From: Bacteroidota bacterium
GTDB taxonomy: Bacteria > Bacteroidota > Bacteroidia > AKYH767-A > OLB10
Assembly (NCBI GenBank): GCA_031366005.1
Contig: JANLZB010000038.1
Coordinates: forward strand, 41,208 to 105,207
Length of the DNA stretch: 64,000 nt
Direction: 5' to 3'
The first letter of the stretch is position 1, and every line of letters begins with the position of its first letter. The position numbers and the translations under genes are program-made. Below the pieces are notes generated by a model. It did not search any database. It was given only the letters and a program-made list of their open reading frames with translations, and was not told where the DNA came from. Of this stretch, positions 20,240 through 52,929 are shown piece after piece.

Positions 20240-21640
20240 CTAAATCACCGCTTCCACTTTCTCATTCAGCCATTTCAAATCAGCGACATTTTTTTCTGCA
20301 TCAATTTCCTGTTTTAGTTTTTGAAGTTTGGTATTGCTAATCCCTGCCCGCACCAATCGCGTTAAAAATTTAACCAGGTTGCGGTTGATTGTTCGCTGAT
20401 ATTCTGAAATGCTTCTGTTGCGTAAAAGAAATAAACGAAACGCTGATGCGTGATAAAAAAAAGTTTCCACCTCATCCAATTCATAAAATGCTTTTAATAA
20501 AACCACTCGTGCATCCAGTTGATAAAACACATCTGTGAAAACAACATCCTGCAACTGGCGGATTGATTTTTTAAAATCTGCATTCATAAAATACCAGTAA
20601 GCAAGATTATATGCTAATGCATTTTTACGTTCGGCAGGCAATAAGTAATTGATGTATTTGTGAATAAAAATACGGCACCATTCTTTTTCATTTAAACGCA
20701 AGGCAATGCTTACGATGTTCTTATACTCCCATTGCGAAAGATAATCTGCATTCATCAGCCGTTTGTCAGCAAGCATCGTTTTATAAATTTCAAAAAGTGT
20801 TTTGATGTATGCAGTGTTTCCCTGGTTAATTTTTTTAACACAATAATTTTTTACATACTGATACATGCCATTCAATTCTGCAACAGGAAAAAGATGTCCG
20901 TGTTTTTTCAACAGCTCACGCAAACGGTCAAAGTTTTTTTCCTTGTCAGCATCAGTGAGCGTTAAGAGTATGTGATAATAAATCTGAATAACAGGAATTT
21001 TAGCAAACGGTTCTTTAACGGCCAGTTTTTTGATTTCATCAAACAAGTGCAAATTAAAATCACCTGAAAGAATATTTTTAAGATTGATTACCTCGCAAAA
21101 CAATTGGAGCTTACGCGATAAATAAAATGTTTCTAAATTTTGTAATACATCCTGATAATCCAGTTTCTTTTTTCGTGATTGCTTGCTTCCTGTATAATTG
21201 AGATGCTGATCTGCCGCAACGAAACGGTGATAATAAAACTTGGAATTCTGAATCTCGTCCTGTTGTTTTATTAAGTGATAACGATACTGGTATGATTTCT
21301 CACAATCACGCTTGGCAAGTTCATTTGCGCAAATTGTATTTTGCAATAAATCATCTTTATCAAAACCTCTGAGTGAAATAAAATATTCAAGATGCTTGGT
21401 GAGATCAGTGAGCAGGTAACGCATTTGCTGATCGTTAAATCTAACAATACCAAATATTTTTTTATGCAAGTCCTTGCGTGAAAAACTTTTGTTTTTATTC
21501 AGCATTACTCTCACAGCAATAAAACAATCATCCAGCTTTTTGTTTTCTGTAAAGTAGGGTGAATGGAGATAAGATTTAAATGCTTTTACTTCATGCAGGT
21601 TGAGTGAACGAATAAGTTCTGTAAGCTTTGAGTTTTGCAT
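20240..21640 (-). CDS. hypothetical helical (regulator-like) protein; paralog of 50681..52159
   Basis: 466 aa, all-helical. The N-terminal segment LTELIRSLNLHEVKAFKSYL aligns with LQQLITGMNKEQIRFFKLF of the second copy. It lies divergent from a T9SS cargo gene. Confidence 0.4.
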   Translation of the reverse strand: MQNSKLTELIRSLNLHEVKAFKSYLHSPYFTENKKLDDCFIAVRVMLNKNKSFSRKDLHKKIFGIVRFNDQQMRYLLTDLTKHLEYFISLRGFDKDDLLQNTICANELAKRDCEKSYQYRYHLIKQQDEIQNSKFYYHRFVAADQHLNYTGSKQSRKKKLDYQDVLQNLETFYLSRKLQLFCEVINLKNILSGDFNLHLFDEIKKLAVKEPFAKIPVIQIYYHILLTLTDADKEKNFDRLRELLKKHGHLFPVAELNGMYQYVKNYCVKKINQGNTAYIKTLFEIYKTMLADKRLMNADYLSQWEYKNIVSIALRLNEKEWCRIFIHKYINYLLPAERKNALAYNLAYWYFMNADFKKSIRQLQDVVFTDVFYQLDARVVLLKAFYELDEVETFFYHASAFRLFLLRNRSISEYQRTINRNLVKFLTRLVRAGISNTKLQKLKQEIDAEKNVADLKWLNEKVEAVI

Positions 21641-21659
21641 TGAGAAGACCTTCCTGTAT

Positions 21660-21801
21660 TGTCATCCTGAAAGGAACTTGTGTAATAGTATTATAAAGGT
21701 TGACTTAGTGGGGAGTTGATTTAACAGAGGTGCGTTGAACAAACTTGCTTCGTATTCAAACTTTGGTGCAACTATTACACAAGTTCCTTTCAGGATGACA
21801 G
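21660..21801. repeat. perfect 30-bp inverted repeat (TGTCATCCTGAAAGGAACTTGTGTAATAGT) flanking an 82-bp spacer; MITE-like or operator palindrome
   Basis: Left arm 21660-21689. The exact reverse complement is at 21772-21801. Read directly from the sequence. Confidence 0.8.
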
Positions 21802-22074
21802 TTATTTCGTGTAAAAATACTTTATCCCGACAAATAACCATATCATTTCAAAAATATGTTTGCTTTGCCTGTAAACTGTAAACCGAAAAACGTAAACTAT
21901 ACTTTGACAAATCAAAAAAACTGTACTTTTTTACAACCTGTTCCCCGAGTATGTTTGTATCGTGAAAAACTATCTGGTAGAAACACTACCTTTAAACTTC
22001 AGCTTATGAAAACAATATTTACCTCCTGTAAGACGCAAAGTATTTTCTCCAAAACAATACATTGCTTCAAAATC

Positions 22075-25000
22075 ATGCGCATAAAAAAACATGTTTCTCT
22101 TTTTTCTATTTTGATAATAATTTCATTTCAGTCAAAAAGCATCAATGTTCAGATATCCAAAGTGGATGATGCATGTGCTGAAGGCATCGGATCTATTGGT
22201 GCTTTTGCTTCTGGAGGAACACTTCCTTACACTTTTGTCTGGTCGAATGGAACAACTGATATTTCAAATGATGCGGAAGATACCATTCATAATCTTTTTG
22301 CGGGGGTATATTCTTTAACCGTGTATGACGCGGCAGGGGACAGTGCGGTTGTCAGCGCTACTTTAACAAATTATCCTAACCTTGATCGCAACGGTTTACT
22401 AGGAGCAATGAATATGATGACTAATAGTGGTCCTCCATTTCCGGGAAATCCCGGTTTTGCATGTCCGAATACTTATGATGGAATTATGTATGGTTTTTTA
22501 AATATAGTAGGTGGAATCCCTCCTTTTTCAGTGACTTCTTTCAGTACTAATAATTTTAATCCGTATGCAGATGCATATATAGGTATAGGTACAATCGGCT
22601 ATTATTTTGCGGTTGATAGCCTGATGACAGGCGACCAGTTTTTTATAACAATAGCTGATAATGCAGGCTGCACCGGAAACTTCAGCGATATGGAATTTGG
22701 TCCTGATTATTTCAGCACCAATATTATTTCTACAACGCCAGCAACTAACGGACAAAGCAACGGGAGCTTGACTATTGACCATCACTCCGGACCTTTTACT
22801 TTAAATATTATTCTTAATGACAGTCTTGGTTCTGTTGGTTCATTCAACGGAGTATCAGGATTGATGAACCTGAGCAACACGCTGCATCCGGGAACTTATA
22901 CCATTTACATGGAATATAATAATACAAGGAATGTGTGTGATACTACATTGACTGTTACTGTTGGAAATACAATTTCCAATGCAGGATATTACTGGGTTGG
23001 AGGCACAGGCAACTGGAGCGATTATGCAAACCATTGGGCTACTACAAGTGGAGGTACAACATTTCAAACAGCTCCACCAGGACCCAATGGTGATGTTTAT
23101 TTTGATGCGAATTCGTTTCCAACTGCGAATGATACTGTTCATGTAGATGTAACAACTGCCTATTGTAATAATTTTGATTGGACAGGTGCAAATAACAGTC
23201 CTGATATTTATGGAAGCGGCACTACCGTTAATATCTATGGCTCATTTATTTTATGTCCAACAATGACCTGCGATTTGCCCAATATCAATTTTATTTCATC
23301 ACAAACCAATAACATCATTCGCACTTATGGTAATCTGTCACTATTAGGTACGAACTTCACATTTAATAATCCCACCGGTGAATGGGAATTAGCTGACAAC
23401 CTCACTTTGCCTGTAAATGGAGGTGTGGGCAATCTCGCTGTTGTTAGCGGAACTTTTAAATCAAATAATTTTAATGTAACCTGTTATAGGATTACGGCTG
23501 GCAGCGCGACTGGATTGTTTGGAACTTCCACAATCGAATGTTCTGAATTTCACATTCTGTTTGGCGCCTCTCTTGACCTCGATTCAACAATTATTCAAGG
23601 AGTTGGTACACTAACTTCAAATCAAAATGGTATCGCATTCAATATTGTTAATGCTGTAGATATTTATGTTGATTCTTGTACGGTTAATAAAATCGTGTGC
23701 ACAGGTTTCAATGGTTTAAGCAATTCTGTTAAAGAAATAACCACCTTTTATATAAGCAATCAAGCCACTGGTAATGCAATAGCCCCTAATCATTTTCAAA
23801 AAGCAATATTTCCTTTTAATGGACGAATTGACTCTAACACTTCTTATTTTGATACAGTATTCGTAGATCAATCTTCGAGTACCTTTCAACTTCAAGGTAA
23901 CAGCAGCGATACAGTTTTTGTAAACAATCAATTCATCATAAACAAACCATCCGGACAATCAAATTTTACAAGCAATGGTCCTGTTCTATCCGTTGCATCA
24001 GGAACAGTTTGTCTTCACAATGTAGCCCTGCAAAATGTTGCTGCTGTCGGTGGCGCACAATTTTATGCAGGTCAGGGATGTACTGATGCAGGAGGCAACA
24101 CTGGTTGGACATTTGCTCCATGTTCAGTAGTAACAGATGTGTGGCCCGGTGATGCAAATTATGATTTAACAGTAAACAATTTGGATGTGCTAAACATCGG
24201 CATGGCTTATGGAGATACAGGTGCTGTTCGTACTGGTGCATCAAACAATTATGTTGCACAACCTGCAGTTGACTGGAGTGGATTTTTTCAAACAGCAGTA
24301 AATAAAAAACATGCTGACTGTAATGGTGATGGAATAGTTGACAACAATGACACGGCTGCAATTGCTTTGAACTATGGACAAAATCATCCTGCACGTTTTT
24401 CAAATCCCGGAAATCAACTGTTACCATCTCCAGATTTATATCTTGAAATAAATCCTGACTCCGCAAGCTTAAGCGATACTGTTAATGTGGATGTTTTTCT
24501 TGGAACAAACACCACACCTGTTGACAGTATTTATGGAATTGCCTTCACCATCAATTTTGATACTGCTTATGTGGATACCACTTATATGCCTTTTGATTAC
24601 ACTGGTAACTGGATGGGAGTTTCAGGTGTTGATTTATTAACGTTTCAGAAAACACGTTTCTTAGAGGGTGCAGTTGACATGGCAATGGTTCGCACTGATC
24701 ATCAGAATATCGGAGGCTTTGGATTTTTAGAACGCATAGGAATTGTGGTGGTGGATAATATCGGTGCACGAATTACAACTCCTTTCACGCTTTCCAATGT
24801 TCATGCAATCACTTACTCGGAATATGTGCTTGCTATAAATACTTTGAATGATTCTCTTTCACTTGATACCATCTCATCTGTTGGAATTAATGAAGTTGGA
24901 AATCTTGAAAACATGATTTCTGTTTATCCGAATCCTGTAAAGGAAAAATTACATATTCACTCAGGTAGAATTAATATGAATGGTGTTGAAATTTATAACT

Positions 25001-25149
25001 GCATGGGTGAGATGGTTGTTAATGAAAAAATAAATTCAAATTTTGTTAGTTTAAATGTTACAAATTTGCAACAGGGAATTTATTTGATTCGTTGTTATAC
25101 TGATAAAGGAGTTTTCAATAAACGAATGGTAATTGCAGTCAGGAAGTAA
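22075..25149 (+). CDS. large secreted protein with a dockerin-like calcium-binding repeat pair and a C-terminal T9SS (Por) sorting domain
   Basis: The start was taken at the internal MRIKKHVSLFSILIIISFQS signal. Two dockerin-type loops are GDANYDLTVNNLD and DCNGDGIVDNND. The C-terminus (VYPNPVKEKLHIHSG...GIYLIRCYTDKGVFNKRMVIAV) matches the T9SS CTD. Confidence 0.75.
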   Translation: MRIKKHVSLFSILIIISFQSKSINVQISKVDDACAEGIGSIGAFASGGTLPYTFVWSNGTTDISNDAEDTIHNLFAGVYSLTVYDAAGDSAVVSATLTNYPNLDRNGLLGAMNMMTNSGPPFPGNPGFACPNTYDGIMYGFLNIVGGIPPFSVTSFSTNNFNPYADAYIGIGTIGYYFAVDSLMTGDQFFITIADNAGCTGNFSDMEFGPDYFSTNIISTTPATNGQSNGSLTIDHHSGPFTLNIILNDSLGSVGSFNGVSGLMNLSNTLHPGTYTIYMEYNNTRNVCDTTLTVTVGNTISNAGYYWVGGTGNWSDYANHWATTSGGTTFQTAPPGPNGDVYFDANSFPTANDTVHVDVTTAYCNNFDWTGANNSPDIYGSGTTVNIYGSFILCPTMTCDLPNINFISSQTNNIIRTYGNLSLLGTNFTFNNPTGEWELADNLTLPVNGGVGNLAVVSGTFKSNNFNVTCYRITAGSATGLFGTSTIECSEFHILFGASLDLDSTIIQGVGTLTSNQNGIAFNIVNAVDIYVDSCTVNKIVCTGFNGLSNSVKEITTFYISNQATGNAIAPNHFQKAIFPFNGRIDSNTSYFDTVFVDQSSSTFQLQGNSSDTVFVNNQFIINKPSGQSNFTSNGPVLSVASGTVCLHNVALQNVAAVGGAQFYAGQGCTDAGGNTGWTFAPCSVVTDVWPGDANYDLTVNNLDVLNIGMAYGDTGAVRTGASNNYVAQPAVDWSGFFQTAVNKKHADCNGDGIVDNNDTAAIALNYGQNHPARFSNPGNQLLPSPDLYLEINPDSASLSDTVNVDVFLGTNTTPVDSIYGIAFTINFDTAYVDTTYMPFDYTGNWMGVSGVDLLTFQKTRFLEGAVDMAMVRTDHQNIGGFGFLERIGIVVVDNIGARITTPFTLSNVHAITYSEYVLAINTLNDSLSLDTISSVGINEVGNLENMISVYPNPVKEKLHIHSGRINMNGVEIYNCMGEMVVNEKINSNFVSLNVTNLQQGIYLIRCYTDKGVFNKRMVIAVRK

Positions 25150-25193: not shown

Positions 25194-28100
25194 ATGGTAT
25201 ATAATTTTCGATTGTTAATCATAACAATTTTATTTGTGACTGGAATGCATTCCGTAAAGGCTTTCAACGGCATTATCTCTGCACCGATGCAAATAGTAAG
25301 CATCACTTCTTTTGGAACCGATACAGTTATTGCAGCCGGTGGATATAAATACAATCCTGTTTCAGGTTGGCCCGGAGATTATTCCTATTTATTACGCTCA
25401 ATTGATGGTGGTATAACATGGAAAGTTATTTACCGATTGCATTCTAATGCACAATTTCATTCTGTATATGCCCTTAATAACTCAACAGGGTTTGCCGTAG
25501 CTGACAGTGGACTAATGTATAAAACCATTGATGCAGGATCATCGTGGTTTCGTGTTGCATTGCCATCAGGAATTAATCTTTACAACATCGAATTCACTGA
25601 TTCTTTAACAGGTTATGCAACCGGTTCGCAGGAACGTTATTTAAAAACCATTGATGGCGGTTACACATGGACGCAAAAAGCAATTGGTGCCTCATACAAC
25701 GGGCTTTATGATATTACATGGGCAAGTGCAACACGAGGTTTTATTTGCGGAGAGCGTTTCTATACTACAACGAATGGAGGCAATTCATGGAATATCGGAA
25801 GTAATTTTTCCGGTTTTATAAAAACCAAAATGCATTTTAAAAATACACAGGAAGGTTTTGCTGCACCATTCAGCGGGGGTATCGGTAAAACAACTAATGC
25901 TGGTTTATCCTGGACAGTGGATACTACTGCTAACATTATTGATCTGCACGAATTTGATAACGCACATTTTATCGGGGTAAAGGATAGTTCAGTTTATGAA
26001 ACGGTAGATAGTGGCAATACATGGATTTTAAAATATACCTTACCTGTTGGTGATGCAGAAGCAATTCATTTCAGTAGTGCAATGAAAGGATGGATTGGAT
26101 GTGCCAACGAAATTTATAGTACAACTGATGGAGGTGCAACATGGATGGCAAGCGGCTATCAGCATGCAGGAACAGCCGATGTAATTGCATTTGATTCTTT
26201 AACGCTTTATTCTTATTCTGCAATCTGGCAGGATTTACTTTACCAGACTTTTGATGGTGGTGGATCGTGGAGGCATCATGTCACACCTTCAGGTTTAAAT
26301 ATTTCAAGCCTGGATTTTGTTTCGCCTGCAGTTGGTTTTGGAGCAGGACCGGGAGGATTGTATTCCACTCTTGATTCAGGATTTACTTGGACATTGATAA
26401 ACGCTACACCAATTGAAGATGTAAAAGCATTTAATCAATTAAACTTAATTGCATACGATGGTATAAATGGCAACCATGTATATACCAGCACCAACGGAGG
26501 CGTTACATGGAATCTGCTTCAGCCGGTTTATAATAATCCTTCAATAAAAAAATTAGATGCCAATGTTGGATTTGCTGTTACTTATCCAAATACGTTGTAC
26601 AGAACCATAGATGGCGGAGCCACCTGGCAAGTTATGAATTCAAATTTTACAATGAGCACCTGGGACATGCTTGATTCGTTAAACGGTATAAGTGTTTTAT
26701 CAACTAATTCTGATGTTTATAAAACAACTGACGGAGGAATTACGTGGAATTATTTAAGCACTAACAGCAATTTAGTGAATATAAAAATGATTGACCTGCA
26801 AACGGTTTGTTCCATTGGTTTAGGAAGTTATTTTTATTTGTCAATGGATAGTGGTGTTACTTTCAATATTGCTGAAAATGAAATTACACCTTACTTACGC
26901 AATCTTACAAAATCACCAACAGGCGAAGTAATTTTTTATGGTGATTTGATAACAGGTAATTTTATAAACGGATTTCCTCTTTGCGCAACCAAGGCTCTAT
27001 ACGATCGTCCTTATGCCGGAATATTTGAAAGCGATACCGAACATCTCATCAATCAATCGTTAAATGCACAGCAATTTCAATGGTATGATAATGGAAATTT
27101 TATCACCGGCAATACTGATTATGATTTCACAAGCAGCGATACTGGCAGTCACGCAATTTCTTTGATGGCTTCTGATGGCAACTGTAATGCTGATTATTCC
27201 AACAGTATTTATGTTCATCCATTCGGATCAGTTTGGTTGCAACGTACAGGTATCAATTATCGCAACCTGGTTAAGTCAGCCAATTTTCAGATTGGGAACT
27301 TTGGTTATCGTTGCAACGGTTCACTCAATGTTTCATCTACCGACTCTTGTTTTCGTATTAATTTAAAAACATTAACATGGGAACCGGTAGCAAACTTACC
27401 TGCCTCACCTCGCTATGGCAATACCGGATTTGCAATTGGTGGTTATGGGTACGAGGTAAGTTATGATGGAACCTTAAATCAAAATCAGTTATGGCGTTAT
27501 GATGCTTCTAACGATACGTGGATTCAAAAAGCACTCTTTCCGGGAAATGCAAGAATCGGAAGTTCTTCTTTTGTGTTGAACAATAAAGCGTATGTAATTT
27601 GTGGTTATAAAGTTGTTGCTTCCACTGCAATTTATAATAATGAATGTTGGGAATATGATCCTGCTAATGATACTTGGACACAACGAACATCCATGCCAGG
27701 TCTTGAACGAATCAGAGGAGCTGCCTTTGCCGTTAATGGCTTTGGTTATTATGGAGGAGGATGGCAGGTGACCAATTTATTTGATTATTATAAATATGAT
27801 CCCATCAACGATTCATGGAGTGTTATTCCTTCTATTCCGGGTAACCCCAATGTTTATCTTCCGCAAACGTTTGTAAGAGACAATGATGGATATTTACTTG
27901 CAGGAAATAATCCATCCTTTGTTTATAAATATAATTCGATAAGTAACAGTTGGGACAGTGCTGTTATGATCATTAACCAGCAAATTCTGGATGGTGTTTG
28001 TTTTATCAATGGAGACAGTGTGTTAAGTTGCCATAGCTCCAATCAGATAAATGCCTATCCTGATATTTGGTACATGCGGTTTGCGCCTTCTTCCATTCCT

Positions 28101-28376
28101 GTATCTACTCAGCAAAATGCATCAGCTGAGAAAATGATTGATGTAAATGTTTATCCCAATCCTGCAAAAGATCAAATAACTATTACATCAGGAAATTTAA
28201 AAATGAATGCGATTGAAATTGTTAATCCACTTGGCGGAATTTTAATTCGTGAGAAAATAAATAGAAATATGTTTATTCAAAACTTGTCAGGTTTTAACAA
28301 TGGAATTTACATGGTTCGTTGCTTTACTAAAAAAGGAATTGTAAATAAAAGAATAGTGATTACAGGCAGACAATAA
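25194..28376 (+). CDS. secreted BNR/Ycf48-like plus Kelch beta-propeller protein with a C-terminal T9SS sorting domain
   Basis: 1060 aa with a signal peptide. It has many S/TxDGGxTW repeats (TIDGGYTW, STDGGATW, ...). A Kelch-like region follows (GNTGFAIGGYGY, GAAFAVNGFGYYGGG). The CTD reads VYPNPAKDQITI...GIYMVRCFTKKG. Confidence 0.75.
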   Translation: MVYNFRLLIITILFVTGMHSVKAFNGIISAPMQIVSITSFGTDTVIAAGGYKYNPVSGWPGDYSYLLRSIDGGITWKVIYRLHSNAQFHSVYALNNSTGFAVADSGLMYKTIDAGSSWFRVALPSGINLYNIEFTDSLTGYATGSQERYLKTIDGGYTWTQKAIGASYNGLYDITWASATRGFICGERFYTTTNGGNSWNIGSNFSGFIKTKMHFKNTQEGFAAPFSGGIGKTTNAGLSWTVDTTANIIDLHEFDNAHFIGVKDSSVYETVDSGNTWILKYTLPVGDAEAIHFSSAMKGWIGCANEIYSTTDGGATWMASGYQHAGTADVIAFDSLTLYSYSAIWQDLLYQTFDGGGSWRHHVTPSGLNISSLDFVSPAVGFGAGPGGLYSTLDSGFTWTLINATPIEDVKAFNQLNLIAYDGINGNHVYTSTNGGVTWNLLQPVYNNPSIKKLDANVGFAVTYPNTLYRTIDGGATWQVMNSNFTMSTWDMLDSLNGISVLSTNSDVYKTTDGGITWNYLSTNSNLVNIKMIDLQTVCSIGLGSYFYLSMDSGVTFNIAENEITPYLRNLTKSPTGEVIFYGDLITGNFINGFPLCATKALYDRPYAGIFESDTEHLINQSLNAQQFQWYDNGNFITGNTDYDFTSSDTGSHAISLMASDGNCNADYSNSIYVHPFGSVWLQRTGINYRNLVKSANFQIGNFGYRCNGSLNVSSTDSCFRINLKTLTWEPVANLPASPRYGNTGFAIGGYGYEVSYDGTLNQNQLWRYDASNDTWIQKALFPGNARIGSSSFVLNNKAYVICGYKVVASTAIYNNECWEYDPANDTWTQRTSMPGLERIRGAAFAVNGFGYYGGGWQVTNLFDYYKYDPINDSWSVIPSIPGNPNVYLPQTFVRDNDGYLLAGNNPSFVYKYNSISNSWDSAVMIINQQILDGVCFINGDSVLSCHSSNQINAYPDIWYMRFAPSSIPVSTQQNASAEKMIDVNVYPNPAKDQITITSGNLKMNAIEIVNPLGGILIREKINRNMFIQNLSGFNNGIYMVRCFTKKGIVNKRIVITGRQ

Positions 28377-43588: not shown

Positions 43589-44905
43589 ATGTTTGCACGA
43601 ATAAAGAATTATTTATATAAACCCATTCCTTCCACGCAATTAGGATTGTTCAGAATTCTATTTGGTTTGTGTTTGGTGTATGAACTGTTTTATTATTTCA
43701 GTATTGATTTACTGGATAAAGGTTTGCGTGCTCCTGCAATGCGTTTTACTTACGAAGGATTAGAATGGGTTCAATTACTTCCCGGCAAAACAATGGAGGT
43801 AATGTTGTTTGTTTTGCTGTTATCCGCTGTTTGTATCACCGTGGGAATTTTTTACCGTACAGCAACGATTCTGTTTTTCACAGGATTCTCCTACATATTT
43901 TTTATTGATAAAAGTTTGTACAATAATCATCTTTATCTTTTCATACTACTTTGTTTTTTATTGATTGTGACTAAAGCAGATGCCGCAGTATCACTTAATA
44001 AAAAAAGTCTATCAACAACACTTCCTCAATGGCACCTGTTAATTTTTAAGATACAGATTTTTATAGTTTATTTCTATGGCGGAATAGCAAAGCTAAACAC
44101 GGATTGGCTTTTACATCATCAACCGATGCATGCAATGTTACAGATGAATGGATTCAATTCATCGTTAGTGGAAAATTTCCTGGTTTATGGCGGACTGATA
44201 TTTGATTTAAGTATCGGCTTCTTATTGTGGTTTAAGCGCACTCGCATTATTGGAATCATTGGTGTTGTGTTTTTCAATATCAGCAATGCAATTATTTTTA
44301 ATGATATAGGGGTGTTTCCGTTCTTTATGATAATGGCAACCATTTTATTTTTTGAGCCAGACGTTATTCATCAACTTATTTCAAAAAAACAAGCCACAAA
44401 AAAGAAAGATTCAAAACAAAAATTGCAACCGGTTGCATTTACACCTTATAACAGGGTAAATATTTTTCTTGCCGTTTATTTGTCATTTCAATTATTATTT
44501 CCTTTCAGGTATTTATTATTTCCAGGTAATGCTGAATGGTATGGAGTGGGCCAGCGTTTTTCTTGGCGAATGAAAATTCAACATCGTGATTATACGGAAA
44601 TGAAATTTACTGTGGTTGATTATACCAATAAGCGCTTAATGGATTTAGATCCGGCAGAATATCTGACATACGCACAAATGCAAACGCTTATTCTTGATCC
44701 AAAAATGATTTATCAGATGGCAACGTTTCTTGGTAATGATGCCAGGAAAAAAGGAATCTCCGGTGCAGGTGTTCGTGCAGCTGTAAAAGTTAAATTTAAC
44801 GGAAGGAGTGAACAATACATTGTAAATCCTGAAACAGACTTGATGAAAATAAAATACAATCCATTTGATTTGAGAAACTGGGTGCTGCCATTGAAAAATC
44901 CTTAA
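43589..44905 (+). CDS. HTTM-domain membrane protein (vitamin K-dependent gamma-carboxylase-like)
   Basis: 438 aa. The N-terminus LGLFRILFGLCLVYELFYYF and the multi-TM layout match the HTTM domain. Confidence 0.6.
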   Translation: MFARIKNYLYKPIPSTQLGLFRILFGLCLVYELFYYFSIDLLDKGLRAPAMRFTYEGLEWVQLLPGKTMEVMLFVLLLSAVCITVGIFYRTATILFFTGFSYIFFIDKSLYNNHLYLFILLCFLLIVTKADAAVSLNKKSLSTTLPQWHLLIFKIQIFIVYFYGGIAKLNTDWLLHHQPMHAMLQMNGFNSSLVENFLVYGGLIFDLSIGFLLWFKRTRIIGIIGVVFFNISNAIIFNDIGVFPFFMIMATILFFEPDVIHQLISKKQATKKKDSKQKLQPVAFTPYNRVNIFLAVYLSFQLLFPFRYLLFPGNAEWYGVGQRFSWRMKIQHRDYTEMKFTVVDYTNKRLMDLDPAEYLTYAQMQTLILDPKMIYQMATFLGNDARKKGISGAGVRAAVKVKFNGRSEQYIVNPETDLMKIKYNPFDLRNWVLPLKNP

Positions 44906-48241: not shown

Positions 48242-48694
48242 TTGTATGAAGAAGAAAACGGAATTATGAAATCAAGGAAAAATAAAAAAGAAGAAAATGA
48301 AACGCTGCCGGGTTATCCACACTATCCTGAATCAGAAGATATTTTAGCGAATGAAAATAGAGTGGATGCTGATGTTGAAAATTTATCCCGTTCGCATAAG
48401 CATGAAGTGAATGAAATAAAACTAAATCCAGGAGAAGATGTCAAAGTTGATTATTCACCTGAAATTGTGGAGGGAACTGAGGCTGATCTTACTCCCGATG
48501 ATTTAAAAGTTTTAGGAACACTCGATGGTGATCAGGATGATGGCGAGGATGAAACATTAATTCCTAAAATTAAAATTGGTCCTGATCTTTTTGGTGATGA
48601 TCTTGATGTGCCGGGCGCAGAGTTAGATGATGATGCAGAAGATATCGGCTCAGAAGATGAGGAAAATAATTATTACAGTCGCGGACAGGATTAA
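48242..48694 (+). CDS. highly acidic hypothetical protein
   Basis: 150 aa, Asp/Glu-rich (DGDQDDGEDE, ELDDDAEDIGSEDEEN). No recognisable domain. Confidence 0.35.
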   Translation: MYEEENGIMKSRKNKKEENETLPGYPHYPESEDILANENRVDADVENLSRSHKHEVNEIKLNPGEDVKVDYSPEIVEGTEADLTPDDLKVLGTLDGDQDDGEDETLIPKIKIGPDLFGDDLDVPGAELDDDAEDIGSEDEENNYYSRGQD

Positions 48695-48712
48695 TAGTTG
48701 AGCAACAGGAAT

Positions 48713-48745
48713 AAAAAAAACCTCTTGAATTTCAAGAGGCTTTCC
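48713..48745 (-). terminator. rho-independent terminator (palindrome CCTCTTGAATTTCAAGAGG preceded on the plus strand by A8)
   Basis: On the minus strand the hairpin is followed by T8, so it terminates the convergent PKD/T9SS gene. It may also act weakly for the plus-strand acidic-protein gene. Confidence 0.65.
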
Positions 48746-48767
48746 AACAACTACTGATTAACTCAAC

Positions 48768-50603
48768 TCATTTCAATATTGAAATTTTTCGATAGGAAAT
48801 ATTATTATTTATATTCAAATGCAGCAGATATAATCCTGCCTGAAGTTTTGAAACATCAACCGTAATTTCTGAAGCACCATTCTGAATGGTTACATCCATC
48901 ACATTTAAAATATATTTTCCTGTAATTGAATAAACATCCAACATCACATGACTGGCTGATTGTAAATTCAATTTAACTGTTCCTGTTTCTGTTAATGGAT
49001 TCGGATAGATACTAAATGAATAATTGTTTTCATGCTCATTTACTCCAACCATTGACATACGATTTGAATACACGCTGTCACAATAAGTAAATGACCCGGC
49101 AGGACCACCCGCAGTTACACATACATAATACCATCCGCTGTCAGCATACTGATGTACAGGATTTAACCCGCTGCCAAATGTGCCATCTCCAAAATTCCAG
49201 ATGTATTGTGTCAATGCACAATTGTTAAATACGCCAAAGTTGATTGTGCCGTTTCCAAATGTTGAGTCAGGATAAGAATAGAAAACAGGTACACATGAAT
49301 TAGCAGGATTACCAACTATGATTGAATCGCAATAAGAATCGCAAATAGCCCCATTATAGTAGAGTGACAAACAAACAAGATAAGTACCTGATGCAGCATA
49401 TTGATGGAAGGGGCTGCTTTGAGTTGAACTGCTGCCATCACCGAAATACCAATATTGCCCAATGTAATTTCCTGAAGAAAGATTTGCGAATTGCACCCCA
49501 TTTGAAGTATCAGGCGATGCTGTGAAATAAGCCTGGCAGCCGGTAGAATTTCCTATGGTTATATAAGCACAATAAGTACTGGTGCAGCCTGGTAAAAAAG
49601 AAGTGATCGTAAGGCATACATAATAAGTTCCGTTTTGCGTAAATGTGTGATTAGGATTTTGAGAGGCGCTAAAGGTACTGTCGCCAAAATCCCAGTAATA
49701 CGAAGAACCGCCTGATGATAGATCTGTGAAGTTAACTATGCTTCCGTTTTGAGGATTATAATTGAAACTGAAATTTGCCTGGCACGAACCAGTGCTGGTG
49801 ATACTGATGCTGTCACAATAAGTATCAGTACAAGTTAGCGCAGAATCAGTGACGGTTAAACATACCTGGTAATTTCCAGTCTGCACATAAATATGAGTTG
49901 GATTTTGTGCGCTCGAATTAGTGCCATCACCAAATGTCCAGCTATAATTTAAACCGGATGTATTAGTGCTGAAAAAATAATAAGTGGATCCATTGTTTTG
50001 ATGGCTGAAATATGCATTGCATTGAGAGCCAATTCCCGAAACCGTTACCCAATCGCAATAGGAACAAGTTACCTGTTGATTTGAATCAAGTAAGTTTAAA
50101 CAAACAGAATATGTTCCGGATTGTGCATACACATGCAATGGATTGGATGCAGAAGAATATGTGCCATCACCAAAACTCCATTGCATACTCGAATATGTAC
50201 CCGTTGAATAATTGGTGAATGAAACATCCATTGTTCCACTGATTTGAAATCCTGTGAAATAAGCGACACAGTTTCCACCTGCAGGATTCCCAATAACCGT
50301 ATCACATGATGTAGATTGGCAAGGACCGTTGAAAGCATAAATAGTAAGGCATACATAAAAAGGTCCGACAGCATTATACTGATGTGTAATACTGGTAGTT
50401 TGTGAAGCTGTCATCATTCCTGTTCCATCACCAAACGACCACTGGGCAGTATCATACGTCCCTATTGAAGTATTGGTAAAGGTTGCAAGTCCATTACTGT
50501 CAATGGTCCAGTTAAATGATGCTGAGCATTGCGCGTTTACAAATTGTGATACTGATAACAGCAGCATCAACAGTAATAATTTTAAATAGGAGAATTGTTT
50601 CAT
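48768..50603 (-). CDS. PKD-repeat secreted protein with a C-terminal T9SS sorting domain
   Basis: 611 aa with a signal peptide. There are about 6 tandem repeats containing W(S/T)FGDGT...(S/A)xNPxHxY. The CTD reads SIYPNPLTETGTVKL...GLYLLHLNINNNISYRKISILK. Confidence 0.75.
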   Translation of the reverse strand: MKQFSYLKLLLLMLLLSVSQFVNAQCSASFNWTIDSNGLATFTNTSIGTYDTAQWSFGDGTGMMTASQTTSITHQYNAVGPFYVCLTIYAFNGPCQSTSCDTVIGNPAGGNCVAYFTGFQISGTMDVSFTNYSTGTYSSMQWSFGDGTYSSASNPLHVYAQSGTYSVCLNLLDSNQQVTCSYCDWVTVSGIGSQCNAYFSHQNNGSTYYFFSTNTSGLNYSWTFGDGTNSSAQNPTHIYVQTGNYQVCLTVTDSALTCTDTYCDSISITSTGSCQANFSFNYNPQNGSIVNFTDLSSGGSSYYWDFGDSTFSASQNPNHTFTQNGTYYVCLTITSFLPGCTSTYCAYITIGNSTGCQAYFTASPDTSNGVQFANLSSGNYIGQYWYFGDGSSSTQSSPFHQYAASGTYLVCLSLYYNGAICDSYCDSIIVGNPANSCVPVFYSYPDSTFGNGTINFGVFNNCALTQYIWNFGDGTFGSGLNPVHQYADSGWYYVCVTAGGPAGSFTYCDSVYSNRMSMVGVNEHENNYSFSIYPNPLTETGTVKLNLQSASHVMLDVYSITGKYILNVMDVTIQNGASEITVDVSKLQAGLYLLHLNINNNISYRKISILK

Positions 50604-50680
50604 AATATTTTTTTTGGTTTTATTAACGATACAAATGTATTCAGCTGTTAATCCTTTCTGAAACGAGTATTTCTGAATTC

Positions 50681-52159
50681 TTACGTGTTCAGTTTACGAA
50701 AACCAGCATTAATATTATTAATCCACTCTGCGTAACCAATGATTGCTGTTTCTTCCGTTTCCTTTTTATTTCTCTCCATAAAATGCGTTATTCTCATACG
50801 AAGATTTTTATTTTGTGAAGGCTGCGCTGAGTTGATTAAATCTTTCAGAATAAGCAATAAATCTTTCTCGTTCAGGTGTTCTTCTTTTGATAATAAATCC
50901 TTATAATCTTTTTTTACCTGCGCCATTTTATACTCTAAAACATCAAGGCTCTGTAATTCATAGCGTATGATCAACTCAGAAACCGCAATTTTAAATTTCA
51001 ATGAACGGTCAGCAGTTTTATAGCCATCTAATAAATACAATCTGGTGATGTGCTTAATTGCTTCTTTGTAGTTTTTTTTATCAAACCATTGCGTTGCCAG
51101 GTTGAGATAAACAAACAAATGATAAAACGAATTCGATTTTATTTTTTCATTGTCCTTTAAATCTTCAAGAATTTCAATCGCTTTGTCTTTATCAAGAATG
51201 GAATAATTAATCACCAGCGAATTATAATAAAAGAAAAAATATTTGTCATAAAGTATATGATGAAACTCTTCCATTGCAATGCGTAACCGTTCAGCATATT
51301 GTAATGATTGTCTGATCTTATTGTTTTTAAAAAGTGTGTTTACAATATAGGTAAGCATTTGCAGCTTGGTGTCATGATTATTTTTATTAAATAATTTTTC
51401 TTTTTCAAACTCTTTGTAAATATTCAATAGATATTGTTCCAGTGGTTTGTAATCATGCCGTTGTAACAACACCTGGCTTACTGCCCGATAAATTCTAAAT
51501 CTAAGCGTAGGGCTTTTTTTCAAATCTCTGTCTAAAACAAAATCATCAGTTGTTTGTTTTAACAAATCCAGCAAGGGGTTTTTTTCAGGAGAAAAATTTT
51601 GAGTGGTCTTCAAACGATAAGTAACCACCGCCAGCAAATCATCAATAGCTCTTAATTCATGAATCTGTTGCTGATTCTTTTTTCTTTTCTCAATATATCC
51701 TTCCGGATTGATGTGTAAAGTTTCCTGTGATAAACGAATGTATTCTCCGTAAATAATATCCAGCAACTCAAAGCTTTCCAATGATTTTGCTCCACCTTCT
51801 GCTTTTTTTAAATAATATTCAGCCTCGTTCAGCTTGATGTTATCTGCAAAATATTTGTACAATGCCAGCATGTGACAGGTGTAAATAAAATCATCGTCTT
51901 CAAAATGCTGAATAGAAATACTTTTATTCAAATCATTCAGCAACCGGTGCTTCAAGCGGTAAAATGCATTCTTGTCCTTTGAACCATATAGCTTATTAAA
52001 AATTTTTTCCTCATTGTGTGCTGCACCGTTTTTACGGATATAATCAAACAGTAAAATATCTTTCCGGTCATCGGGTGTCTTTGTTCTGCCTGCAAATAAT
52101 TTAAAGAAACGAATTTGCTCTTTGTTCATGCCGGTAATTAATTGTTGTAAAATATTCAT
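50681..52159 (-). CDS. hypothetical helical (regulator-like) protein; paralog of 20240..21640
   Basis: Start taken at MNILQQLITGMNKEQIRFFKLF. The longer ORF would overlap the divergent gene. All-helical, TPR-like. It lies divergent from one T9SS cargo gene and adjacent to another. Confidence 0.4.
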   Translation of the reverse strand: MNILQQLITGMNKEQIRFFKLFAGRTKTPDDRKDILLFDYIRKNGAAHNEEKIFNKLYGSKDKNAFYRLKHRLLNDLNKSISIQHFEDDDFIYTCHMLALYKYFADNIKLNEAEYYLKKAEGGAKSLESFELLDIIYGEYIRLSQETLHINPEGYIEKRKKNQQQIHELRAIDDLLAVVTYRLKTTQNFSPEKNPLLDLLKQTTDDFVLDRDLKKSPTLRFRIYRAVSQVLLQRHDYKPLEQYLLNIYKEFEKEKLFNKNNHDTKLQMLTYIVNTLFKNNKIRQSLQYAERLRIAMEEFHHILYDKYFFFYYNSLVINYSILDKDKAIEILEDLKDNEKIKSNSFYHLFVYLNLATQWFDKKNYKEAIKHITRLYLLDGYKTADRSLKFKIAVSELIIRYELQSLDVLEYKMAQVKKDYKDLLSKEEHLNEKDLLLILKDLINSAQPSQNKNLRMRITHFMERNKKETEETAIIGYAEWINNINAGFRKLNT

Positions 52160-52242
52160 GTTTGAGCGCGTAATATTTTCCAAAATTAAGCCTTGTGATC
52201 CGATTAACAATACATAGATTTGTTTCACACAATAAGAAAACA

Positions 52243-52929
52243 ATGAACAGGCTGTTGGCAATATTGAGTTTTGTATTCGTTATGATGGGCGGGTACAATC
52301 AAAAGGCACAGGCACAGGTGCACTTAACGATTGATTCGCTCATCAATTTTCCTGATACCGCTTTCATAGGTCAGGCTTATCCTATAGCTATACGCATTAA
52401 GAACATTGGCAACCAACCTTACCAGGGACCATTACAAGTTGGCTTGATGCAGGATAGTGCTTTTACTTATCTCTATTACAATCAAAACCCTTCAATTGTT
52501 ATTTTTCCTAACGATACATTAACCTTATATACTGCAAACGGAATGTTAGGTTTTGTATTCGATTCGGCTGTTTTTCGTCCGGGTAATAATGTGGTGGTGG
52601 TATGGCCTTATTCAACGCAGAGTTCAACTCAGGTTGACAGTATGACAACTCAAGTATTTGTGCAGTACACTACAGGAATTAAAAATAATCTGACTGATGT
52701 TAAATTGCAGGTGTATCCTAATCCATTTAAAGACAAAATATCTTTTACAGGTAACATCAAATCAGATATTGAACGCGTAAGAATTATTTCACTGGAAGGG
52801 ATTGTTATATATGATAAAAAGTTTTTAAATCCATCCCTCTTGTTAAATGGATTACAACCCGGCTGGTACATGGTTGATGTGGAAGTGAGAGAAGGAAAAC
52901 ACCTTTATTGTAAAATGATAAAAGAATAA
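52243..52929 (+). CDS. small secreted protein with a C-terminal T9SS sorting domain
   Basis: Start at MNRLLAILSFVFVMMGG (signal peptide). The CTD reads VKLQVYPNPFKDKISFTGN...GWYMVDVEVREGKHLYCKMIKE. Confidence 0.6.
   Translation: MNRLLAILSFVFVMMGGYNQKAQAQVHLTIDSLINFPDTAFIGQAYPIAIRIKNIGNQPYQGPLQVGLMQDSAFTYLYYNQNPSIVIFPNDTLTLYTANGMLGFVFDSAVFRPGNNVVVVWPYSTQSSTQVDSMTTQVFVQYTTGIKNNLTDVKLQVYPNPFKDKISFTGNIKSDIERVRIISLEGIVIYDKKFLNPSLLLNGLQPGWYMVDVEVREGKHLYCKMIKE

What the first reader, a model, noticed from the sequence alone, without database searches (positions are those of the whole stretch)
20240..52929. Paralogous ~470-490-aa helical regulator-like proteins, each divergently paired with T9SS cargo genes
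The proteins at 20240..21640 and 50681..52159 share architecture: an N-terminal short helix-turn-helix-like segment, then a long TPR-like helical body, with similar lengths. Their N-termini are alignable (LTELIRSLNLHEVKAFKSYL against LQQLITGMNKEQIRFFKLF). Each is transcribed divergently from a T9SS-CTD cargo gene (22075..25149, and 52243..52929 with 48768..50603 on the other side). Repeated pairing of an unknown paralog family with secreted cargo suggests a dedicated regulator, chaperone or accessory module for specific T9SS substrates.
Basis: inference. Interest (0 to 1): 0.55.

Follow-up and report, generated by a model that had tools for sequence, protein, structure and literature searches.

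The report
Unannotated TPR regulators paired with T9SS cargo
Two distantly related, unannotated helical-repeat proteins each sit back-to-back with a gene for a protein exported by the Bacteroidota type IX secretion system; the pairing is conserved across many uncultured genomes, and a family-specific DNA box lies at a fixed distance from the cargo promoter, so they are most likely dedicated gene switches for those cargo genes.

Summary

The pairing is conserved. The gene immediately upstream carries a Pfam Por_Secre_tail domain in 55/73 family-A loci and 61/74 family-B loci, against 14/148 control neighbours. It is almost always divergent.

Each family has its own cis box. These are C[CT]G[GA][CT]AAA for A and TGAA-N3-GTAAGA for B. 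Each lies 38-39 nt upstream of the cargo's Bacteroidetes -7 promoter box. The B box, with the same spacing, also precedes the second cargo gene downstream of B.

The best reading is a large unannotated family of cytoplasmic TPR-type regulators of adjacent T9SS cargo promoters. Family A has ~10,900 clusters at 50% identity and no Pfam or NCBIfam model. DNA binding by the N-terminal domain is inferred, not shown. An RRNPP-like peptide-sensing circuit is not excluded.

The parts
20240..21640 (-). Family A protein. It is 466 aa, cytoplasmic and all-alpha, with an N-terminal ~95-aa basic helical domain followed by a TPR-like solenoid.
21347..21640 (-). N-terminal domain of A (about aa 1-98). This is the part that is clearly homologous to the N-terminus of B.
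   Evidence: hhalign Prob 94.5%, E 8e-8 over 85 columns. Alignment A3. No similarity to solved HTH or sigma-4 domains.
21660..21800 (.). Perfect 30-nt inverted repeat with 81 nt between the arms, lying in the leader of gene A. It looks like a REP/MITE-type hairpin insertion.
   Evidence: It is absent from 54 other family-A intergenic regions. The 83%-identical relative has a different inverted repeat at the same place.
21826..21835 (-). Distal A box (ATTTGTCGGG on the A-sense strand).
   Evidence: The strict 8-mer TTTGTCGG occurs 31 times in 15 kb upstream of family-A genes, against once in 68.7 kb of other upstream regions. There are usually two direct copies 75-120 nt apart, with 60 forward and 3 reverse occurrences.
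21904..21911 (+). Proximal A box (TTGACAAA, cargo-sense), 38 nt upstream of the cargo's -7 box.
   Evidence: Sequence read. The 38-nt spacing is shared by 15 of 27 scorable family-A loci, and 17 fall within 36-39 nt. The composite hit in the window ends at 21957.
21950..21957 (+). Predicted -7 promoter box of the A cargo (TATGTTTG, fitting the Bacteroidetes consensus TAnnTTTG).
   Evidence: The consensus itself comes from established knowledge of Bacteroidetes promoters.
22075..25149 (+). T9SS cargo paired with A. It has a signal peptide, a SprB-like repeat, a variable passenger region, a dockerin/cohesin-like module and a type-A CTD. The mechanical ORF starts at 21856.
   Evidence: Por_Secre_tail E 4e-14. 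TIGR04183. Translation.
24139..24894 (+). Conserved 'VWPGD' module of the A cargo: a dockerin-like EF-hand pair followed by a cohesin-like beta domain.
   Evidence: It is present in 51 of 73 A(-1) partners, and only 56 of 1,589 ORFs in all loci carry it. Alignment A7. There are weak PDB profile hits to a dockerin (E 3e-4) and to scaffoldin cohesin (E 0.04).
25194..28376 (+). Second CTD cargo (BNR/Kelch beta-propellers plus CTD), 44 nt behind the A cargo and possibly co-transcribed with it.
   Evidence: The relative L161 also has two consecutive Por_Secre_tail genes.
48768..50603 (-). PKD-repeat T9SS cargo downstream of B on the same strand.
   Evidence: Six PKD_4 domains plus Por_Secre_tail. 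A same-strand CTD gene follows B in 14 of 68 loci.
50632..50639 (-). Predicted -7 box (TACATTTG) of the PKD cargo promoter.
50679..50691 (-). B box (TGAACACGTAAGA) 39 nt upstream of the PKD cargo's -7 box. It overlaps B's stop codon.
   Evidence: A recognisable box followed by a -7-like element is present in all 13 loci where a same-strand CTD gene follows B (box score 7-10 of 10). Nine of these pass the strict composite search.
50681..52159 (-). Family B protein. It is 492 aa with the same architecture as A.
52163..52175 (+). B box (TGAGCGCGTAATA, cargo-sense) 39 nt upstream of the small cargo's -7 box. On the other strand it ends 3 nt before B's ATG.
   Evidence: The motif is in 60 of 72 B upstream regions, against 1 of 393 other upstream regions. 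The spacer is 38-41 nt in 46 loci.
52215..52222 (+). Predicted -7 box (TAGATTTG) of the small cargo. A TTG lies 19 nt upstream of it.
52243..52929 (+). Small T9SS cargo paired with B (228 aa): signal peptide, one Ig/CARDB-like domain and a CTD.
   Evidence: Por_Secre_tail 28.8 bits, above the cutoff of 27. TIGR04183. An ortholog of 221-267 aa is found in 62 of the 74 scorable B loci.
52770..52782 (+). Intragenic third copy of the B box, inside the small cargo's CTD codons (I-E-R-V-R-I) and under synonymous constraint. No -7 box follows it.
   Evidence: The Val codon is GTA in 42/42 genes (background 26%). The Arg codon is AGA or AGG in 42/42, with CGN at 0/42 (background 63%). Raised third-position conservation is confined to codons 176-181. 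No promoter box lies downstream.

Best explanation
A and B belong to two remotely related branches of one large, unannotated superfamily of cytoplasmic proteins in environmental Bacteroidota. Each has a conserved, basic, ~95-residue N-terminal helical domain followed by a ~370-residue TPR-like solenoid. They most likely act as one-component transcription regulators dedicated to the T9SS cargo genes beside them.

Shown:
- Each family forms a conserved divergent gene pair with a type-A CTD cargo gene.
- Each family has its own short DNA box: C[CT]G[GA][CT]AAA for A and TGAA-N3-GTAAGA for B.
- In these loci the box is essentially confined to the cargo promoters. It sits a rigid 38-39 nt upstream of the cargo's TAnnTTTG -7 element, which centres it roughly 55-65 nt upstream of the expected transcription start.
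- In family B the same box and spacing also precede the second cargo gene downstream of B.

Inferred:
- The TPR protein, probably through its N-terminal domain, recognises the box and activates the cargo promoter from this class-I-like position.
- The divergent box lies 0-12 nt from B's own start codon, and a second A box lies just upstream of A. Binding there would therefore also autoregulate the regulator gene, as in the LysR-type divergent layout.
- The TPR solenoid is the sensory part. Its ligand (a peptide or a protein partner) is unknown.
For: Remote homology and shared architecture:
- hhalign full length E 2e-4 against controls.
- N-terminal domain Prob 94.5%.
- Cross-family HMM hits.
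- AF2 helix maps.

Cytoplasmic location:
- There is no signal peptide, and the N-terminus is hydrophilic.

Conserved pairing:
- Own CTD HMM: 55/73 and 64/74 at position -1, with 96-99% on the opposite strand. Other positions give 0-16% in family-A loci. In family-B loci they give 0-11%, except 26% at -3 and 21% at +1.
- Pfam PF18962: 55/73 and 61/74, against 14/148 controls. Fisher p is 4e-23 and 6e-28.
- Independent gene calls agree.
- Family-A subclades track cargo types, and several genomes hold 2-3 paralogs, each with its own cargo.

Cis elements:
- The A box is about 140-fold enriched upstream of A and is oriented.
- The B box is in 60/72 B upstream regions, against 1/393 other upstream regions.
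- The spacing to TAnnTTTG is fixed: 38-41 nt in 46 B loci, and 38 nt in 15 of 27 A loci.
- The same composite precedes the downstream cargo in 13 of 13 loci.
- The composite occurs 78 times in 3.9 Mb. Of these, 62 precede a cargo gene flanking B. Of the other 16, 15 lie in family-B loci at contig edges or beside uncalled genes, and 1 lies in a family-A locus.
- Synonymous constraint on an intragenic third copy shows selection at the nucleotide level.
Against: - No DNA-binding fold was detected in the N-terminal domain. Pfam and NCBIfam give nothing. A PDB profile search gives nothing credible. There is no similarity to an ECF sigma region 4 alignment.
- The best structural analogues, the Rap proteins, are not DNA binders. 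They act on response regulators.
- Two distant homologs of the small cargo keep the B box and spacing but have Peptidase_M23, not B, as divergent neighbour. The box therefore belongs to the cargo promoter, and the trans factor is either encoded elsewhere in those genomes or is not B.
- The promoter boxes and start sites are predicted from a consensus, not mapped.
- The loci sampled are the 80 closest relatives of each family. They say little about the other ~10,000 clusters.
Confidence: 0.55

Rival explanations
1. RRNPP-like signalling circuit. The TPR protein is a cytoplasmic receptor, as Rap, NprR, PlcR and AimR are. It senses a peptide derived from its own T9SS-secreted partner after export, processing and re-import, and then feeds back on the partner's promoter. 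This is a special case of the regulator model that adds a specific ligand and a cell-cell signalling role.
For: - As in RRNPP systems, the receptor gene is adjacent to the gene for a secreted product.
- In one family-A subclade the partner is only 165-168 aa. It consists of a signal peptide, ~75 acidic low-complexity residues with a conserved PEIDNLSGLKPDGEDL motif directly after the signal peptide, and a CTD. That is a propeptide-like design.
- Both families have a series of invariant Asn residues along the solenoid. Whether they face the groove was not checked.
Against: - There is no sequence-level link to any RRNPP family.
- Most partners are large folded multidomain proteins of 230-1,600 aa, not propeptides.
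- No oligopeptide importer is conserved in the neighbourhood.
- A literature search found no RRNPP-type system described in Bacteroidota.
Confidence: 0.12
2. The TPR protein is a non-DNA-binding co-regulator. It acts as an adaptor or anti-activator, binding a separate transcription factor, response regulator or sigma factor that is the real reader of the A and B boxes. This is how Rap proteins act on Spo0F and ComA.
For: - Rap proteins are the closest structural analogues, and their N-terminal helical bundle binds proteins, not DNA (mode of action from established knowledge).
- No DNA-binding fold was detected in the N-terminal domain.
- B-box promoters exist without an adjacent B gene.
Against: - No second regulator gene is conserved in either neighbourhood. 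Apart from the second cargo at +1 in about a fifth of family-B loci, positions other than -1 are variable.
- An ECF sigma gene lies ~5 kb away in only 3 of 80 family-A loci.
- Each box type co-occurs with its own TPR family, so the partner would have to have diverged in parallel.
- The N-terminal domain is strongly basic and is the best-conserved part shared by the two families.
Confidence: 0.2
3. The TPR protein is a chaperone or accessory factor for the biogenesis or secretion of its partner. This would resemble the TPR class II chaperones of type III secretion. The conserved synteny would then reflect co-expression only.
For: - The pairing with secreted proteins is conserved.
- TPR domains commonly bind extended peptides.
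Against: - The proteins lack signal peptides. T9SS cargo crosses the inner membrane by Sec and meets the T9SS in the periplasm, so a cytoplasmic chaperone has no obvious point of action (established knowledge of the T9SS).
- The partners are structurally unrelated between families: dockerin/cohesin-module proteins, a 75-residue peptide, and an Ig-like domain.
- This model does not explain family-specific boxes at fixed promoter geometry.
- SprE is a lipoprotein.
Confidence: 0.08
4. The boxes act at the RNA level or as promoter elements of the TPR gene itself. One form would be pairing between the B leader (UCUUACnnnUUCAA) and the complementary site in the cargo mRNA. Another would be a helical-repeat RNA-binding protein. 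The TPR protein would then not be a transcription factor for the cargo.
For: - The divergent B box lies 0-12 nt from B's ATG and is probably in B's leader.
- Its complement lies in the cargo coding region under synonymous constraint.
- Designed PPR-RNA complexes appear among weak Foldseek matches (E about 0.01).
Against: - There is no locus-specific covariation between the leader copy and the intragenic copy (own mean 8.39 mismatches, cross mean 8.57, permutation p 0.22).
- The rigid 38-39 nt spacing to the cargo's -7 box points to a DNA-level promoter function. So does the box's recurrence, in cargo-sense orientation, before the downstream cargo and before cargo genes that lack B.
Confidence: 0.05

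Closest known systems
RRNPP family of Firmicutes peptide receptors (Rap, NprR, PlcR, PrgX, AimR)
   Same: - They are cytoplasmic and all-alpha, with a small N-terminal helical effector domain followed by a TPR solenoid of about 300-400 residues.
- The receptor gene is adjacent to the gene for a secreted product.
- Several members activate the promoter of that neighbour.
   Different: - There is no sequence homology, and Foldseek is not significant.
- The phylum is Bacteroidota.
- The partner is a T9SS cargo of 165-1,600 aa with a CTD, not a 40-60 aa propeptide.
- The N-terminal domain is neither an XRE-type HTH nor demonstrably a Rap-type three-helix bundle.
- No importer is linked.
Divergently transcribed dedicated regulators (LysR-type layout)
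   Same: - The regulator and its target are transcribed divergently from a compact intergenic region (83-100 nt for B).
- A conserved site lies at about -55 to -65 of the target promoter and overlaps the regulator's own leader, which implies activation plus autoregulation.
   Different: The fold and domain order are entirely different. LysR-type regulators have a winged HTH and a periplasmic-binding-protein-like effector domain. The resemblance is one of genetic logic only.
Large TPR-containing transcription activators (MalT domain III, SARP/BTAD-TPR regulators)
   Same: - A TPR-like sensor is coupled to a transcription output.
- They act as activators from upstream sites.
   Different: A and B have no NB-ARC or ATPase domain, no LuxR or OmpR-type DNA-binding domain, and no BTAD domain detected. 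They are also much shorter.
PorX/PorY/SigP with PorA (T9SS regulatory cascade of Porphyromonas gingivalis)
   Same: It links a small CTD-bearing protein to the transcriptional control of T9SS-related genes (recalled from the literature, not tested here).
   Different: Its components are a two-component system and an ECF sigma factor. No TPR protein of this kind is involved, and it regulates the secretion machinery rather than individual neighbouring cargo genes.
SprE/PorW, the TPR lipoprotein of the T9SS
   Different: SprE is an exported lipoprotein of the translocon. A and B have no signal peptide or lipobox, and their similarity to SprE is weaker than to many unrelated TPR proteins.

Membership tests
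RRNPP receptors | Sequence membership in the Rap/NprR/PlcR/AimR families (Pfam or other HMM models). | tested here: not met
   Pfam, NCBIfam and PHROGs give no hit for A and only a sub-threshold TPR_2 hit for B. PDB profile searches hit only consensus TPR designs.
RRNPP receptors | TPR-type solenoid fold with a small N-terminal helical domain. | tested here: met
RRNPP receptors | An adjacent gene encodes a short secreted propeptide that matures into the cognate signalling peptide. | tested here: inconclusive
   The adjacent gene always encodes a secreted protein. Only one family-A subclade has a propeptide-like 165-168 aa partner with a conserved short motif. The other partners are folded proteins of 230-1,600 aa.
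RRNPP receptors | Binding of the imported peptide in the TPR groove controls activity. | not testable with these tools
   This needs binding assays or structures.
   There are no Pfam or NCBIfam domains. The N-terminal profile A3 searched against the PDB gives only chance-level hits. hhalign against an ECF sigma alignment gives Prob <=2%.
Sequence-specific transcription regulators of adjacent genes (functional class) | A conserved, specific cis site at fixed geometry in the target promoter. | tested here: met
   The A and B boxes are about 140-fold and 400-fold enriched. The spacing to TAnnTTTG is 38-39 nt. The same composite stands before both cargo genes flanking B.
Sequence-specific transcription regulators of adjacent genes (functional class) | The protein itself binds that site and changes transcription. 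| not testable with these tools
   This needs EMSA or DAP-seq, reporters and mutants. One caution is that box-bearing cargo promoters exist without an adjacent B gene.
T9SS type-A cargo (the partner genes) | A C-terminal Por_Secre_tail/TIGR04183 sorting domain plus an N-terminal signal peptide. | tested here: met
   PF18962 and TIGR04183 score above their cutoffs for all four window genes. Hydrophobic N-termini are visible in the translations.
TPR repeat proteins (Pfam clan) | Repeats that match the TPR sequence models. | tested here: inconclusive

The most novel reading that the evidence does not exclude
These proteins are the receptor half of a previously unrecognised Bacteroidota cell-cell or secretion-feedback signalling system that is analogous to Firmicutes RRNPP quorum sensing.

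- A cytoplasmic TPR receptor is encoded back-to-back with a T9SS-exported partner. In one subclade that partner is a minimal propeptide: signal peptide, ~75 residues carrying a conserved PEIDNLSGLKPDGEDL motif, and a CTD.
- The receptor senses a partner-derived peptide, or secretion status.
- It then activates the partner's promoter through a family-specific box at about -60.

The N-terminal ~95-residue domain would then be a new type of DNA-binding or output domain, present in more than 10,000 protein clusters.
Probability: 0.12. Interest if true: 0.85.

Novelty: new variant of a known kind. Interest (0 to 1): 0.62.

Why it matters
How individual T9SS cargo genes are regulated is largely unknown outside the PorXY-SigP control of the machinery in Porphyromonas.

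This analysis defines a very large protein family, and a remote sister family, that has no Pfam or NCBIfam model and is named only "hypothetical protein". Family A alone has about 10,900 clusters at 50% identity. Three features give the family a concrete, testable role:
- A conserved divergent partnership with T9SS cargo.
- Family-specific DNA boxes.
- Rigid promoter geometry.

The boxes also give a direct way to predict regulons in uncultured Bacteroidota genomes.

If the N-terminal domain binds DNA, it is a new DNA-binding module. If the TPR body senses partner-derived peptides, this would be the first RRNPP-like circuit in a Gram-negative phylum, and it would use the T9SS as its export route.

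The nucleotide-level constraint on a box copy inside a coding region is also a clean example of a regulatory element embedded in a CTD-coding sequence.

Tried and rejected
1. Sigma-70 region 4 / LuxR-like reading of the N-terminus. This was my own recollection of a pattern resemblance (KEQIRFFKL... / FYRLKNRLL). A PDB search with the N-terminal profile and hhalign against an ECF sigma alignment gave nothing, so I dropped it.

2. RNA pairing or co-evolution between the B leader box and the intragenic copy. The permutation test for locus-specific covariation was negative (p 0.22).

3. An A-box copy inside family-A cargo genes, by analogy with B. There is no enrichment (0.23/kb antisense against a background of ~0.33/kb).

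4. An internal promoter behind the intragenic B box. No TAnnTTTG lies within 80 nt in any of 41 loci.

5. The 30-nt inverted repeat as a conserved operator. It is absent from the other 54 family-A intergenic regions. It is more likely a REP/MITE-like insertion.

6. Known RNA families in the window: none at gathering thresholds.

7. The sigma-70-type promoter and terminator scan was uninformative for Bacteroidota.

8. PHROGs and PADLOC gave no hits.

9. The Foldseek AFDB50 library was not available. Foldseek against the PDB gave no significant hit.

10. ORF 16582..17994 (470 aa, no Pfam hit) was checked as a possible third member. It is a polytopic membrane protein and is unrelated.

11. Literature searches for such regulators, for RRNPP systems in Bacteroidota and for dockerin/cohesin T9SS cargo found nothing relevant.

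Full report
THE OBSERVATION

The window is AT-rich (34-40% GC) and carries the two ORFs as described. A is 20240..21640 (-), 466 aa. B is 50681..52159 (-), 492 aa, counted from the conserved ATG.

Neither protein matches any Pfam, NCBIfam, PHROG or PADLOC model. The only exception is one sub-threshold TPR_2 hit in B.

Their neighbours are bona fide type-A T9SS cargo genes:
- 22075..25149: SprB-like repeat plus Por_Secre_tail.
- 25194..28376: BNR/Kelch plus Por_Secre_tail.
- 48768..50603: six PKD domains plus Por_Secre_tail.
- 52243..52929: 228 aa, Por_Secre_tail at 28.8 bits against a cutoff of 27.

The window holds six CTD genes in all. The base rate is therefore high, and a position-specific test was needed.

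ARE A AND B RELATED?

BLASTP says no (best E 4.9). Each protein has a large family of "hypothetical proteins" from uncultured Bacteroidia.

Evidence that the two families are remote homologs:
- Profile-profile comparison aligns 419-428 columns collinearly from the first helix to the C-terminal W-L motif (score 41.8, E 2e-4).
- Reversed alignments score about 16 over 12-29 columns. Twelve block-shuffled versions score 20.7-25.3.
- The B profile also picks up 73 of 115 family-A sequences at relaxed thresholds, with collinear N- and C-terminal segments.
- AF2 models are confident (pLDDT 91.2 and 84.2) and all-alpha. The helices fall at near-identical sequence positions for the first ~230 residues.

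I conclude that they are remote homologs with one architecture: a basic N-terminal helical domain plus a TPR-like solenoid.

IS THE PAIRING WITH CARGO REAL?

I fetched 80 loci for family A from species-representative genomes and 80 for family B from metagenomes. I called ORFs mechanically and detected CTDs with an HMM iterated from the window's four CTDs.

The gene immediately upstream of the TPR gene:
- Family A: it carries a CTD in 55/73 loci and is on the opposite strand in 96%.
- Family B: it carries a CTD in 64/74 loci and is on the opposite strand in 99%.
- Other positions within seven genes score 0-16% in family-A loci.
- In family-B loci they score 0-11%, apart from 26% at -3 and 21% at +1.

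I checked this independently with the curated Pfam model on the C-terminal 110 residues. Por_Secre_tail is present in 55/73 and 61/74, against 14/148 neighbours at positions +-2/3. Fisher p is 4e-23 and 6e-28.

Database gene calls with precomputed Pfam hits show the same layout in an 83%-identical relative of A and a 65%-identical relative of B.

WHAT THE PARTNERS ARE

Family A partners:
- They are not arbitrary cargo. 56 of 73 fall in one homology cluster.
- 51 carry a ~250-residue "VWPGD" module directly before the CTD. Only 56 of 1,589 ORFs in all loci have this module.
- The module gives weak profile hits to a dockerin (E 3e-4) and a scaffoldin cohesin (E 0.04). The N-terminal passenger regions vary from ~450 to ~1,600 aa.
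- Family-A subclades track cargo classes of roughly 720, 1,440 and 850-1,150 aa.
- Ten genomes contribute 2-3 paralogs each to the 80 loci. Where both partners could be called, they belong to different cargo classes.
- One subclade is paired with a 165-168 aa protein made of a signal peptide, ~75 acidic low-complexity residues with a conserved PEIDNLSGLKPDGEDL motif, and a CTD.

Family B partners:
- The divergent partner is a conserved ~225-245 aa protein made of a signal peptide, one Ig/CARDB-like domain and a CTD.
- In 14 of 68 loci, including the window, a second CTD cargo follows B on the same strand. It is often PKD-rich.

Reciprocally, starting from the small cargo:
- Homologs at 36% and 30% identity have a divergent 491 aa or 488 aa gene with no Pfam hit. 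The one with DNA available scores 775 bits against the family-B profile.
- The two weakest homologs (28-30% identity) have Peptidase_M23 as divergent neighbour instead.

CIS ELEMENTS, THE MAIN NEW EVIDENCE

Family B. The intergenic regions are only 83-100 nt long. They contain a conserved box read on the B strand as TTTCTTAC[GC]CGTTCAAA, 0-12 nt before B's ATG.
- The box is in 60 of 72 B upstream regions, against 1 of 393 other upstream regions.
- Read in the cargo's direction it is TGAA-N3-GTAAGA.
- It lies 38-41 nt upstream of a TAnnTTTG element (17 loci at 38 nt, 25 at 39, 3 at 40, 1 at 41). TAnnTTTG is the Bacteroidetes -7 promoter box, taken from established knowledge.
- In the window the box is TGAGCGCGTAATA at 52163-52175. 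After 39 nt comes TAGATTTG at 52215-52222, and the cargo ATG is at 52243.
- In all 13 loci where a same-strand CTD cargo follows B, a recognisable B box followed by a TAnnTTTG-like element stands in front of that gene (box score 7-10 of 10). Nine pass the strict composite of box, 37-41 nt and TAnnTTTG.
- In the window that box overlaps B's stop codon: box 50679-50691 (-), -7 box 50632-50639 (-), ATG 50603.
- The composite occurs 78 times in 3.9 Mb of double-stranded sequence. Of these, 62 precede a cargo gene flanking B: 53 before the divergent partner and 9 before the downstream cargo. Of the other 16, 15 lie in family-B loci, mostly at contig edges or beside genes my ORF caller missed, and 1 lies in a family-A locus.

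Family A. This family has a different box.
- TTTGTCGG(A) on the A strand occurs 31 times in 15 kb upstream of A, against once in 68.7 kb of other upstream regions.
- Occurrences are 60 forward and 3 reverse, usually as two direct copies 75-120 nt apart.
- The cargo-proximal copy lies 38 nt upstream of the cargo's -7 box in 15 of 27 scorable loci.
- The window follows the pattern: TTGACAAA at 21904-21911, then 38 nt, then TATGTTTG at 21950-21957.

So two remotely related protein families have two unrelated boxes in identical promoter geometry, centred roughly 55-65 nt upstream of the predicted start. That is the position from which class-I-type activators work.

The TPR protein is the only other conserved component of each locus. 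Its box type changes with the family.

MECHANISM

Most likely (0.55), A and B are one-component regulators. In this model the N-terminal basic domain, or the protein as a whole, recognises the box and activates the adjacent cargo promoter(s). The TPR solenoid is the sensor.

The box also sits on the regulator's own leader (B), or a second box lies just upstream of the regulator (A). Binding should therefore also autoregulate.

What is shown:
- Homology between the families.
- The fold class.
- The conserved pairing.
- Box specificity and spacing.

What is inferred:
- Who binds the box.
- The sign of regulation.
- The ligand.

Against the model:
- No DNA-binding fold was detected.
- The closest structural analogues, the Rap proteins, bind proteins rather than DNA.
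- Two distant cargo homologs keep the box, the 39-nt spacing and the -7 composite while lacking an adjacent B gene.

The last point shows that the box belongs to the cargo promoter. It leaves open whether B acts in trans from elsewhere in those genomes or whether another factor reads the box.

RIVALS

- Rap-like co-regulator acting through another transcription factor: 0.2.
- RRNPP-like peptide-sensing circuit: 0.12. It is a refinement of the main model rather than an alternative to it. The propeptide-like partner in one subclade is its best support.
- Chaperone or accessory factor: 0.08. The cytoplasmic location and Sec-dependent cargo argue against it.
- RNA-level function of the boxes: 0.05. 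The covariation test was negative (p 0.22), and the promoter geometry argues for DNA.

AN UNEXPLAINED FEATURE

A third copy of the B box lies inside the small cargo's CTD codons. In the window it is at 52770-52782, ATT GAA CGC GTA AGA, encoding I-E-R-V-R.

In 42 distinct cargo genes:
- The Val codon is GTA in 42/42 (background 26%).
- The Arg codon is AGA or AGG in 42/42, and never CGN (background 63%).
- The preceding codon ends in T in 41/42, although its amino acid varies.
- Raised third-position conservation is confined to codons 176-181.

The genes are phylogenetically related, so naive probabilities overstate the case. Other invariant residues in the same genes show ordinary third-position variation.

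No -7 box follows this copy. It may be a secondary operator for looping or a roadblock. That is speculation.

SIZE AND NOVELTY

An exhaustive profile search finds 10,929 representatives at 50% identity for family A alone at E<=1e-3, and 5,231 at E<=1e-30.

Sources name the members only "hypothetical protein". Literature searches found no description of such regulators.

I rate this a new variant of a known kind: a TPR-type one-component regulator in a divergent regulator-target layout. It has an unrecognised N-terminal domain and a specific link to T9SS cargo.

LIMITS

- Gene calls in the loci are my own simple ORF calls.
- The loci are the closest 80 relatives of each family (33-100% identity for A, 41-63% for B).
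- Promoter elements are consensus predictions.
- Nothing here is experimental.

Noticed in passing
window 21660-21689 / 21771-21800: A perfect 30-nt inverted repeat (TGTCATCCTGAAAGGAACTTGTGTAATAGT) with an 81-nt loop lies between the distal A box and A's start codon. It is the only copy in the window and is absent from 54 other family-A intergenic regions. The 83%-identical relative L161 has a different inverted repeat (GTCATTGCGAG / CTCGCAATGAC) at the same place. Both look like REP/MITE-type hairpins inserted in the leader.
   Followed up: partly
window 52770-52782 (inside 52243..52929): A copy of the B box is embedded in the CTD codons of the small cargo and is under strong synonymous constraint (Val GTA 42/42, Arg AGR 42/42). 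No promoter box follows it, and its function is unknown.
   Followed up: yes
L164 3419-3478; L166 3419-3478: Distant homologs of the small cargo (28-30% identity) keep the composite of B box, 39-nt spacer and TAnnTTTG 23 nt before their ATG. Their divergent neighbour is a Peptidase_M23 gene, not family B. Whether those genomes encode B elsewhere could not be checked.
   Followed up: partly
L056, L063, L066, L069, L076, L079, L080 (the gene upstream of family A, e.g. L069:7226-7729): One family-A subclade is paired with a minimal 165-168 aa T9SS cargo. It consists of a signal peptide, ~75 acidic low-complexity residues with a conserved PEIDNLSGLKPDGEDL motif, and a CTD. This is a propeptide-like design.
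   Followed up: partly
window 24139-24894, and 51 of 73 family-A partner genes: A ~250-residue module precedes the CTD: a VWPGD...KHADCNGDG dockerin-like EF-hand pair followed by a cohesin-like domain. It is almost exclusive to family-A partners (51 of the 56 occurrences among 1,589 ORFs). It has no Pfam model and gives only weak PDB hits to dockerin and cohesin.
   Followed up: partly
window 43589-44905, next to 42234-43469: A bacterial HTTM / vitamin K-dependent gamma-carboxylase-like gene (HTTM E 2e-63 plus the VKGC lumenal domain) lies directly downstream of another CTD cargo (Sortilin/BNR-like plus Por_Secre_tail).
   Followed up: no
window 17996-19576 and 59282-60967: There are two CtpA/CtpB-like S41 tail-specific peptidase paralogs (PDZ plus Peptidase_S41) in one 64-kb window. 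The first lies two genes downstream of A, and it occupies the same position in the relative L161.
   Followed up: no
L009:2410-2895, L025:2491-3081, L038:984-1469: An ECF sigma factor gene lies ~5 kb upstream of family A in three orthologous loci of one subclade. It is not seen in the other loci.
   Followed up: no
window 55675-58668: A further CTD cargo with a DUF7619 domain (E 3e-52). It brings the window to six Por_Secre_tail genes in 64 kb. It has no A- or B-box composite upstream.
   Followed up: partly
family-A cargo promoters (e.g. window 21950-21975): The sequence just downstream of the cargo's -7 box is itself conserved across many family-A loci (TATGTTTGTAnCGTGAAATTGTATC). So is an AAAAATACAAA element between the A box and the -7 box. 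Neither is explained.
   Followed up: no
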